A stretch of DNA of 64,000 nt from Octopus sinensis (taxonomy: Eukaryota): contig NC_043001.1 in NCBI RefSeq assembly GCF_006345805.1, forward strand, positions 75,516,001 to 75,580,000. The letters run 5' to 3'. Under the pieces are notes generated by a model. The model was not told the origin of the DNA. It saw nothing but the letters and a program-made list of their open reading frames with translations, and did not search any database. This document shows, piece by piece, positions 24,298 to 25,730 of the stretch (its first letter is position 1; each line of letters starts with the position of its first letter). The translations under genes were made by a program, and so were the position numbers.

Positions 24298-24439
24298 TAT
24301 CTATCTACCTATATATGTGTATATATATATATATATATGTATAGACATAAATATATATATACACACACACACACACACACACATATATATATATATATAT
24401 ATATATATATAAAATGTTCAAACTCCCCACAACTGATTT

Positions 24440-24478
24440 GATTTGAAAAGCCCACTAGAATGGGAGAAAGCGCTAATC
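24440..24478 (+). ncRNA. Hammerhead-like motif, U3-A8 core variant
   Basis: GAT-TTGAAAA-G-CCCA(ctagaa)TGGG-A-GAAA-GCGC-TA-ATC: stem I GAT/ATC, stem II CCCA/TGGG, palindromic stem III AGCGCT, putative CUA cleavage site. Confidence 0.5.
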
Positions 24479-24678
24479 CGAATGATATGATATGATATAT
24501 ATGTAAAAAATGTAATATATAAATAAATATCTACAAATATGAACCATCTGATCTGATTACCTCATTTTTTCTAATATATATATATATATATATATATACA
24601 CACACACACATATATATATATATATATATATATATATATATATATATATATATATATATATATATATATATATATATA

Positions 24679-24882
24679 GTTAATCCAAACATGAAAGCAC
24701 AAAAAAACACAACAACGCGAGGACGTGGAACAAATATAGTATTATTGGACGCCCAGGAAAGAAGGAAAGAAGGAGAGTTTAACGTTTCGAGCGGAGCTCT
24801 TCGTCGGAAACATAGGAGAAGGAAAGATCCAGAGAAGGGAAGACAGATGAAAAAATCGCCTACGGTACACACGCGGTCACAT
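24679..24882 (-). mobile_element. ~200-bp PLE pseudo-LTR-like element carrying a minimal hammerhead, in (TA)n
   Basis: Flanked by (TA)n; a diverged inverted homolog lies at 25220-25440; contains the HHR motif at 24777-24811. Confidence 0.6.
24777..24811 (-). ncRNA. Minimal type I hammerhead ribozyme (U4C core variant)
   Basis: Minus strand GTTT-CCGACGA-A-GAGC(tcc)GCTC-GAAAC-GTT-AAAC: 4-bp stem I, 4-bp stem II, palindromic AACGTT stem III typical of PLE-associated minimal HHRs. Confidence 0.7.
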
Positions 24883-25298
24883 TTATATATATATAGAGAG
24901 AGATACATACATACACACACCGACACACACACATACATATATGTGATACTGTGTAGCAGGCCGCTGGCATTTATAGAGTGTTAAACTTTTTCCGTATGCA
25001 AATTAGGTAATCCTTTATAGAGTAACTGCTGCATTTGTTGAGTATATAAGCAGTTTGGCAGATGTTTTCTCTGAACATTGTCAAAATGTTGTGGACTCCT
25101 CTGATGAGAATCGATTAAAGTTATTCGTCATTTTCTTCAGTCTGCGGAGAAATGGCTAACATCTGCCTTGTTTATAATTATACCTTATGTTATACGTATG
25201 TATATAAATATATATTTTCAAAATGTAGCCACATGTTAATGGTTGGCGATTTCTTTTCCTCCCGCTTCCTTTTCTTTTGGACTTTTCTCTGTCCCCTA

Positions 25299-25329
25299 TT
25301 TCTGAAGAGCTTTCCCCGAAACGTAAAAC
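25299..25329 (+). ncRNA. Degenerate minimal hammerhead in a diverged copy (25220-25440) of the 24679-24882 element
   Basis: TTT-CTGAAGA-GCTTTCCCC-GAAAC-GTA-AAA: intact core and GUA site, eroded stem II. Confidence 0.55.
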
Positions 25330-25648
25330 CACCTTTCTTTACTTCCCTGAACGTTTGCTAATACAATGCGTGTGCCACGTACTTGCGTTGTTGCTTTTTT
25401 TTCTTCTTATGTTTGCTCTTCGTTCGTTTTGGATTTACTATATATATATATGTATGTATGTATGTATGTATGTATGTATGTATGTATGTATGTATGTATG
25501 TATATATGTATGTATATATGTATGTATATATGTATATATATATATATATATATATATATATATATATATATATATATATATATATATATATATATATATA
25601 TCAAGAAAGAGGTGACACCTGAAAATAGGTTATGCAACGAGCCTCATT

Positions 25649-25730
25649 AGCTTACAGCTGTTTCTGCTATAGGATGTGGTGGGCTGGTAGTGGACATGCT
25701 GTGGAACATCCTATAGCTTCATCAGAGGTT
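25649..25730 (-). ncRNA. Type I hammerhead ribozyme with long stem II
   Basis: Minus strand AACCT-CTGATGA-A-GCTATAGGATGT...ACATCCTATAGC-A-GAAAC-AGCT-GTA-AGCT: perfect 12-bp stem II, palindromic ACAGCTGT stem III, GUA site; stem I weak and mismatched. Confidence 0.75.

What the first reader, a model, noticed from the sequence alone, without database searches (positions are those of the whole stretch)
24411..25730. Hammerhead-ribozyme hotspot: several distinct short HHR-bearing elements stacked in one (TA)n tract
Seen: within 1.3 kb, short unique segments separated by TA-rich microsatellites carry hammerhead cores at 24440 (+), 24777 (-), 25299 (+) and 25649 (-), each with a palindromic minimal stem III (AGCGCT, AACGTT, ACGT, ACAGCTGT). 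They represent three unrelated designs. Known: minimal type I HHRs with palindromic stem III mark PLE pseudo-LTRs and retrozymes and are proposed to cleave as dimers. Inference: this is a landing pad where several non-autonomous ribozyme-bearing retro-RNAs or solo pLTRs were written into (TA)n, plausibly by PLE RT/GIY-YIG proteins like the one encoded 11 kb away in the same target type. That would be a microsatellite-targeted ribozyme-retroelement system not obvious from protein annotation.
Basis: partly seen in the sequence, partly recalled or inferred. Interest (0 to 1): 0.75.

Follow-up and report, generated by a model that had tools for sequence, protein, structure and literature searches.

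The report
Stacked Penelope ends in TA repeats
Five different jumping-gene families, each carrying a hammerhead self-cutting-RNA motif, have left pieces in one AT-rich microsatellite cluster; four are cut-off ends of protein-coding Penelope-like retrotransposons and the fifth is likely a small non-coding passenger, so this is an unusually dense but otherwise ordinary pile-up, likely caused by these elements' known liking for TA repeats.

Summary
The four hammerhead cores are real and at the stated places. A fifth element (24941-25192) and a dead sixth core (25835) were missed. None of the segments is unique: all are multicopy families ending in (TA)n (27 of 29 unbiased E2 copies, background 5%). 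Walking upstream links four of them to protein-coding Penelope-like elements (PLEs): E1 and E2/E3 to Neptune-type RT + GIY-YIG ORFs, E4 to a Hydra-type ORF. Only the overlooked E5 looks non-autonomous (about 300-nt head-to-tail units, no ORF). The Hydra-type element 11 kb away has a different pLTR, so none of the segments is its end. Copies differ 2-23% from their families, so the site was likely hit repeatedly over a long time. Neighbours from another family occur at 17 of 223 copies (4.7 expected). Same-strand stem-III palindromes in the stack do not match, so no in-cis dimer is predicted. Scattered truncated-PLE hammerheads, (TA)n targeting and PLE-derived retrozymes are all published, and this scan reported the same on other DNA of this genome. 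Residual interest: preferred 5' ends in E2, and families spreading with altered cores (U4C; U3-A8 with A13C).

The parts
24310..24411 (.). (TA)n/(CA)n tract at the 5' junction of E1
24412..24575 (+). E1: 5'-truncated 3' end of a young Neptune-type PLE, short (tail-less) end; 3.8% from family majority
24443..24475 (+). E1 hammerhead: U3-A8 core, G10.1/A11.1 mismatch, 4-bp stem II, AGCGCT palindrome; this copy has A13 (9 of 50 exact copies do, 41 have C13)
24574..24678 (.). (TA)n tract shared tail-to-tail by the 3' ends of E1 and E2
24679..24884 (-). E2: pLTR-sized 3' end of an abundant Neptune-type family; 5' end at the family's preferred breakpoint; 2.3% from majority
24781..24807 (-). E2 minimal hammerhead: C3-C4-G5-A6-C7-G8-A9, extra A before G10.1, 4-bp stems I and II, ACGT palindrome; predicted cut between 24781 and 24780
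24941..25192 (+).
25213..25440 (+). E3: older sister family of E2, 3' end of a Neptune-type PLE; hammerhead at 25302-25325 has lost 3 nt and stem II; 12% from majority
25439..25601 (.). (TA)n/(TATG)n tract shared tail-to-tail by E3 and the minus arm of E4
25602..25790 (-). E4 minus arm: pLTR of an old Hydra-type family, short end; hammerhead at 25653-25725 with intact core, 12-bp stem II, ACAGCTGT palindrome, stem I reduced to 2 bp; 23% from majority
25794..26030 (+). E4 plus arm: inverted partner with the long (tailed) end; dead core at 25835 (mutated, 3' half of stem II and GAA deleted)
36737..40577 (+). Separate 5'-truncated Hydra-type PLE (RT + C-terminal GIY-YIG, ORF to 38788) with its own hammerhead at 40457-40526; its pLTR matches none of the stacked segments

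Best explanation
The region holds five insertions from multicopy hammerhead-bearing families, four of them ends of protein-coding Penelope-like elements and one a likely non-autonomous ~300-nt unit, which were likely written one after another into TA repeats by PLE enzymes. Inferred mechanism: a PLE GIY-YIG endonuclease nicks (TA)n, and the RT copies the element RNA from a fixed 3' point (one of two, with or without the 'tail'). Copying usually stops early, often 70-150 nt beyond the hammerhead, leaving a pLTR-sized stub or an inverted pair. Each insertion leaves TA repeats beside it, so the site stays a target. The hammerheads are passengers of the pLTRs and are predicted not to work together at this locus. 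Shown: family membership, ORF linkage, fixed 3' ends in (TA)n, inverted pairs and tails, neighbour excess, spread of divergences. Inferred: target-primed reverse transcription, order of insertion, which enzyme moved E5.
For: E1 continues upstream into RT, a CX4CxxC linker and GIY-YIG (L152, L160; Pfam RVT_1 E 7e-5 and GIY-YIG E 6e-4, both below the curated cut-off). An E2-type end lies downstream of a Neptune-type ORF in L385, whose endonuclease region is 66-69% identical to three loci ending in E3. An E4 pLTR directly precedes a Hydra-type ORF in L221. 27 of 29 position-ordered E2 copies end in TA repeats versus 5.4% background. Among 44 distinct E1 ends, 12 carry a 34-nt tail, 29 end in TA and 3 otherwise. 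In 4 of the 5 two-copy E4 loci examined the arms are inverted and pair a short with a long end, as in the window. Other-family neighbours within about 1.5 kb: 17 of 223 independent loci versus 4.7 expected, conditional P 0.01; 7 of the 17 within 200 bp; L394 holds three families. Divergences 2.3-23%. All of this matches the PLE anatomy in PMC8557442, PMC4209133 and PMC11167929.
Against: ORF linkage rests on few loci: one clear locus for E4 (L222 and L232 show only partial, oddly placed Hydra hits) and one for an E2 subfamily that differs from the window's copy in its 5' part, with about 1.7 kb of simple repeats between ORF and end. The background density rests on 4 insertions in 600 kb. 0 of the 29 unbiased E2 loci had an other-family neighbour, and 171 of the 223 loci were not position-ordered samples. 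No second five-element stack was seen. Clades were assigned by motifs, without a tree. E2's 5' ends cluster more tightly than random truncation predicts.
Confidence: 0.85

Rival explanations
1. E2/E3 short copies are a SINE-like non-autonomous family: RNAs that start at a promoter inside the pLTR, about 80 nt upstream of the hammerhead, and are retrotransposed whole. This would modify the main reading, not replace it.
For: 16 of 24 short unbiased E2 copies have 5' ends within one 17-nt window (74-90 nt upstream); simulated mean 6.5, 0 of 20,000 simulations reached 16 (one gapped locus and one duplicate left out of 30). The window's E2 and E3 both start there.
Against: 4 of 28 copies extend over 800 nt and 4 more extend 96-137 nt. 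The breakpoint sits in an AT-rich stretch that offers microhomology with (TA)n. The coding Hydra family also shows a weaker cluster (7 of 20, P 0.04).
Confidence: 0.3
2. The stack is a functional ribozyme cassette: one transcript is cut by neighbouring hammerheads acting as dimers and releases or circularises an RNA.
For: High local density; E1, E2 and E4 keep a core that could be active.
Against: Same-strand partners have unmatched palindromes: cross-duplexes of -1.7 kcal/mol or weaker, against self-duplexes of -8.3 (E1) and -11.1 (E4). E2 and E3 share ACGT but lie on opposite strands. E3, E5 and the E4 plus arm are broken. Ages differ tenfold.
Confidence: 0.03
3. The stack arose by segmental copying, recombination between microsatellites or misassembly, not by repeated insertion.
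For: Microsatellite-rich regions assemble poorly; some fetched loci are duplicated (de-duplication).
Against: Each element has its family's canonical 3' end on TA repeats and its own divergence; no other fetched locus showed the same combination.
Confidence: 0.07

Closest known systems
[quoted passage not shown]
   Same: Palindromic minimal stem III, extra base between 9 and 10.1 (E2, E3), mostly single scattered motifs from truncated PLEs, opposite-strand pairs 100-700 bp apart, a U3-A8 variant.
   Different: E1, E4 and the window's Hydra element have a mismatch at 10.1/11.1; E2 carries C4 in 22 of 29 copies; 41 of 50 E1 copies carry C13.
Hydra clade of PLEs (Craig et al. 2021, PMC8557442; section 11 and passages read)
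   Same: DKT motif, CxCX5C linker, no CCHH, CxxC and CxH around the endonuclease end, hammerhead, (TA)n insertion: seen in the window's PLE and, where readable, in the E4 parent.
   Different: About 4.65 kb long rather than under 3 kb; RWA instead of RWK; no tree built.
Neptune clade of PLEs (as described in PMC8557442 passages)
   Same: C-terminal GIY-YIG, CX2-5CxxC linker, hammerhead in the pLTR, microsatellite bias: parents of E1 and E2/E3.
   Different: ORFs seen are frameshifted; placement by motif only.
Animal non-LTR retrozymes (PMC7229834, passages; bioRxiv 10.64898/2026.07.22.740005, part 1 of 5 and passages)
   Same: E5: about 300-nt non-coding unit, GC 35-38%, type I hammerhead, head-to-tail copies.
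   Different: Only up to about 1.7 units seen, fixed 3' end in (TA)n, old and mostly broken cores, no self-pairing excess, no RNA evidence. E1-E4 are not tandem units.
PAc Poseidon element of the anole (Frangieh et al. 2024, PMC11167929; parts 1-2 of 4 read)
   Same: Two RT start points giving a tail, AT-rich targets, hammerhead cleavage not needed for insertion in vitro.
   Different: Another clade; here the evidence is genomic only.

Membership tests
PLE minimal type I hammerhead | Conserved core (C3-G8 or U3-A8; G12 A13 A14; A15.1-U16.1; H17) | tested here: met
   Met by the window's E4 and E1 (U3-A8); E2 with the U4C variant; E3, E5 and E4 plus arm damaged
PLE minimal type I hammerhead | Palindromic minimal stem III | tested here: met
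   AGCGCT, ACGT, ACAGCTGT, AATCGATT (E5 family), ACATATGT
PLE minimal type I hammerhead | G10.1-C11.1 pair | tested here: inconclusive
   Met in E2, E3 family and E5 family; not met in E1, E4 and the Hydra element
PLE minimal type I hammerhead | Self-cleavage as monomer or dimer | not testable with these tools
   Needs in vitro transcription
EN+ PLE (parents of E1-E4) | pLTR joined to an ORF with RT and GIY-YIG | tested here: met
   L152/L160 (E1), L385 and L223-L225 (E2/E3), L221 (E4):
EN+ PLE (parents of E1-E4) | 5' truncation, inverted 5' copy and optional tail | tested here: met
   E1 and E4 show all three; E2/E3 show truncation, no tail seen
Neptune clade (E1, E2/E3 parents) | CX2-5CxxC linker before a C-terminal endonuclease | tested here: met
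   L152, L229, L385
Neptune clade (E1, E2/E3 parents) | CCHH motif in the endonuclease | tested here: inconclusive
   CxxC between GIY and YIG in L152; copies frameshifted or mutated
Neptune clade (E1, E2/E3 parents) | RT phylogeny | not tested
Hydra clade (window PLE, E4 parent) | DKT, CxCX5C linker, no CCHH, CxxC/CxH | tested here: met
   842-aa ORF; decayed L221 read by eye
Hydra clade (window PLE, E4 parent) | RWK motif | tested here: inconclusive
   RWA in the 842-aa ORF
Hydra clade (window PLE, E4 parent) | Generally shorter than 3 kb (a tendency in PMC8557442, not a strict criterion) | tested here: not met
   About 4.65 kb in L157
Hydra clade (window PLE, E4 parent) | RT phylogeny | not tested
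Non-LTR retrozyme (E5) | 150-450-bp non-coding unit with type I hammerhead, in tandem, GC under 45% | tested here: met
   10 of 28 other loci run head-to-tail past one unit; no shared upstream sequence or linked ORF; GC 35-38%
Non-LTR retrozyme (E5) | Highly self-paired unit | tested here: inconclusive
   z -0.7 to -1.3 on three decayed copies
Non-LTR retrozyme (E5) | Expressed as circular RNA | not testable with these tools
   Only contigs of guessed-RNA runs were offered
Non-LTR retrozyme (E1-E4) | Non-coding tandem unit | tested here: not met
   Families lead into ORFs and are not head-to-tail units

The most novel reading that the evidence does not exclude
E2/E3 are a very abundant SINE-like class of solo pLTRs that start at an internal PLE promoter and carry an uncut hammerhead, and PLE families in this genome have spread with weakened or dead cores (U4C in thousands of E2 copies; A13C in 41 of 50 E1 copies, ORF-bearing ones included). 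That would be in vivo evidence that PLE retrotransposition uses uncleaved RNA and that selection tunes the ribozyme down.
Probability: 0.25. Interest if true: 0.5.

Novelty: new member of a known kind. Interest (0 to 1): 0.25.

Why it matters
As found, it adds families to known kinds and shows how (TA)n tracts accumulate PLE debris over long times, which matters for repeat annotation: short hammerhead stubs between microsatellites are mostly PLE ends. The open question it touches is what the PLE hammerhead is for. Natural core variants in recently amplified families give ready test pairs (A13 vs C13 in E1; C4 vs U4 in E2).

Tried and rejected
Rfam at E<=1 over the window: no hammerhead family, mostly microsatellite-driven miRNA noise. 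Pfam did not recognise the Hydra-type ORF. A pattern for an extended E2 5' end gave 0 matches but was mis-specified, so it says nothing. RNA: no holder on record as RNA was listed; contigs of four guessed-RNA runs laid on E2, and three guessed-RNA runs plus one of unknown kind laid on an E5 copy, showed cover but cannot show ends, strand or circles. A joint alignment of E4 and Hydra hammerheads failed to align and was not used. I first read the E1 core as degenerate and dropped that once it proved to be the U3-A8 variant in all 50 exact copies. A DNA-transposon (TIR) reading of E1's inverted pairs was rejected because the interior is an RT/GIY-YIG ORF and the two ends differ by a tail. Sequence look-ups in earlier scan notes for E1, E2 and E5 found nothing. 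Paper searches: 'hammerhead + octopus + retrozyme' listed two papers, neither on these families by title or abstract; four of five of 'Penelope, retrotransposon, TA microsatellite, nested insertion, cephalopod' gave 0. These do not show that the families are undescribed; Repbase and Dfam were not available, and no supplements were read.

Full report
Observation. The region 24300-26100 alternates TA-, CA- and TATG-rich tracts with complex segments. I call the segments E1 (24412-24575, +), E2 (24679-24884, -), E3 (25213-25440, +) and E4 (25602-26030). A strict descriptor found 5 motifs in 599,800 random bases of this genome and none in 5 shuffles, so such motifs are not chance, and intact ones are common here, roughly one per 100 kb.

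Every segment is a repeat. Searches of the own genome gave 953 (E1), 1047 (E2), 2305 (E3) and 910 (E4) first-look candidates, 40 scored each. One exact 29-mer of E2 occurs 4573 times, with 0 for the reversed control. The stretch between E2 and E3 is a fifth family, E5, with 1102 candidates. Its relatives carry a canonical hammerhead with a 5-bp stem II and an 8-nt palindrome; the window's copy has lost part of the core. E4 is a head-to-head fold-back: the minus arm carries the named core, the plus arm a dead one.

Where the segments come from. E1 extends upstream for kilobases in several copies. In L152 it ends an element with RT, a CX4CxxC linker and GIY-YIG, flanked on the left by an inverted copy of the same end; Pfam gives RVT_1 and GIY-YIG below their curated cut-offs. 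E2 and E3 are sister families of one design. An E2-type end lies 2.7 kb downstream of a Neptune-type ORF in L385, and that ORF's endonuclease region is 66-69% identical to three loci that end in E3. E4 directly precedes a decayed ORF in L221 that is 45-71% identical to the window's PLE protein over four RT/EN blocks (43% and lower in others) and shows its DKT and CxCX5C motifs. E5 differs: 10 of 28 other independent loci run head-to-tail past one unit of about 300 nt, no upstream sequence is shared, and no ORF is linked. So four pieces are PLE ends and one is retrozyme-like.

The neighbour 11 kb away is a 5'-truncated copy of a young family with intact 842-aa ORFs (1460 exact matches of a 28-mer of its hammerhead). 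It fits the Hydra motifs listed in PMC8557442 section 11. Among homologues, those labelled with an animal species are molluscan, cephalopod included; most have no name. Its pLTR matches none of the stacked segments. Whether its enzyme could move E5 in trans is untested.

Targeting and stacking. In 29 independent, position-ordered E2 copies, 27 are followed by TA repeats against 5.4% of random positions. E1 shows two 3' end points: 12 of 44 distinct ends carry a 34-nt tail. In 4 of 5 two-copy E4 loci examined the arms are inverted and join a short and a long end, as the window's fold-back does. This is the tail signature explained in PMC11167929. Sixty random 10-kb stretches held 4 strong insertions of the six families. 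Against that, 17 of 223 independent family loci had another family within about 1.5 kb (4.7 expected, conditional P 0.01), 7 of them within 200 bp, and L394 holds three families. The two position-ordered sets disagree: 4 of 23 for the Hydra family, 0 of 29 for E2. The window's copies differ from their family majorities by 2.3% (E2), 3.8% (E1), 12% (E3), 16% (E5) and 23% (E4) (majorities come from best hits, so these are rough). I infer repeated insertion over a long time. A five-element stack is far beyond uniform insertion, and is best read as the tail of a genome-wide pairing tendency; I did not see a second one.

The ribozymes. E2 is intact but has C at position 4 in 22 of 29 copies. PMC3088659 notes that U4C lowers activity in vitro yet supports viroid infectivity (passages). 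E1 has U3-A8, a variant reported in PMC4209133; 41 of its 50 exact copies also have C13 instead of A13, including ORF-bearing L152. A13 is in the consensus core used by PMC3088659; that C13 kills cleavage is my inference. E3, E5 and the E4 plus arm are broken. Same-strand palindromes in the stack cannot pair with each other, so no in-cis dimer or excised monomer is predicted. All copies have the hammerhead in their interior, so the RNA templates were uncut at that site or re-ligated; this agrees with the finding that hammerhead mutants do not affect insertion in vitro (PMC11167929).

A residual puzzle. 16 of 24 short E2 copies begin within one 17-nt window, 74-90 nt upstream of the searched motif. 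This may mark a transcription start in the pLTR, making E2 SINE-like, or an AT-rich microhomology with the target. The Hydra family shows a weaker cluster (7 of 20). RNA data could not decide.

Comparison and verdict. Scattered single minimal hammerheads from truncated PLEs (PMC4209133), (TA)n insertion by hammerhead-bearing Hydra elements and microsatellite bias of Neptune (PMC8557442), and PLE-derived retrozymes (PMC7229834; bioRxiv 10.64898/2026.07.22.740005) are in print. Earlier notes of this scan report like pile-ups, retrozymes and altered cores elsewhere in this genome; I did not check those loci. Interest 0.25.

Noticed in passing
window 35890-36030 (-): A hammerhead-like core 5' half followed by a GGCC stem start and a distant GAA, beside a (TA)n tract; it did not fit the type I descriptor.
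   Followed up: no
window 36184-36280: Short complex segment between TA tracts; similar sequence seems to flank L049 and L404, so probably another (TA)n-inserting family end.
   Followed up: no
window 44874-45422 (-): Pif1 helicase 2B domain (E 2.7e-15), possibly a Helitron-type fragment.
   Followed up: no
window 24011-24300 and 26095-26340: Two abundant interspersed repeats, SINE-like by appearance, flank the stack; 18 BLAST hits each in 600 kb plus the window.
   Followed up: partly
L305, L307, L332, L336, L345: Five intact hammerheads of further families in 600 kb of random sequence, with 6-10-nt palindromic stem III.
   Followed up: no
L156-L157 (G000:C19:25712000-25727000): Two near-identical Hydra-type elements in tandem 5.3 kb apart, one with an intact 842-aa ORF, both starting 86 nt upstream of the hammerhead core.
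   Followed up: partly
L399:1519-1598: Contigs of run X16 show go-back joints of 56-80 nt and high depth in this part of the E5 unit, suggesting a more abundant sister family with an internal duplication.
   Followed up: no
E1 family, e.g. L152, L160: 41 of 50 exact copies of this young family carry C13 in the hammerhead core, many with a 7-nt duplication just after the cut site.
   Followed up: partly
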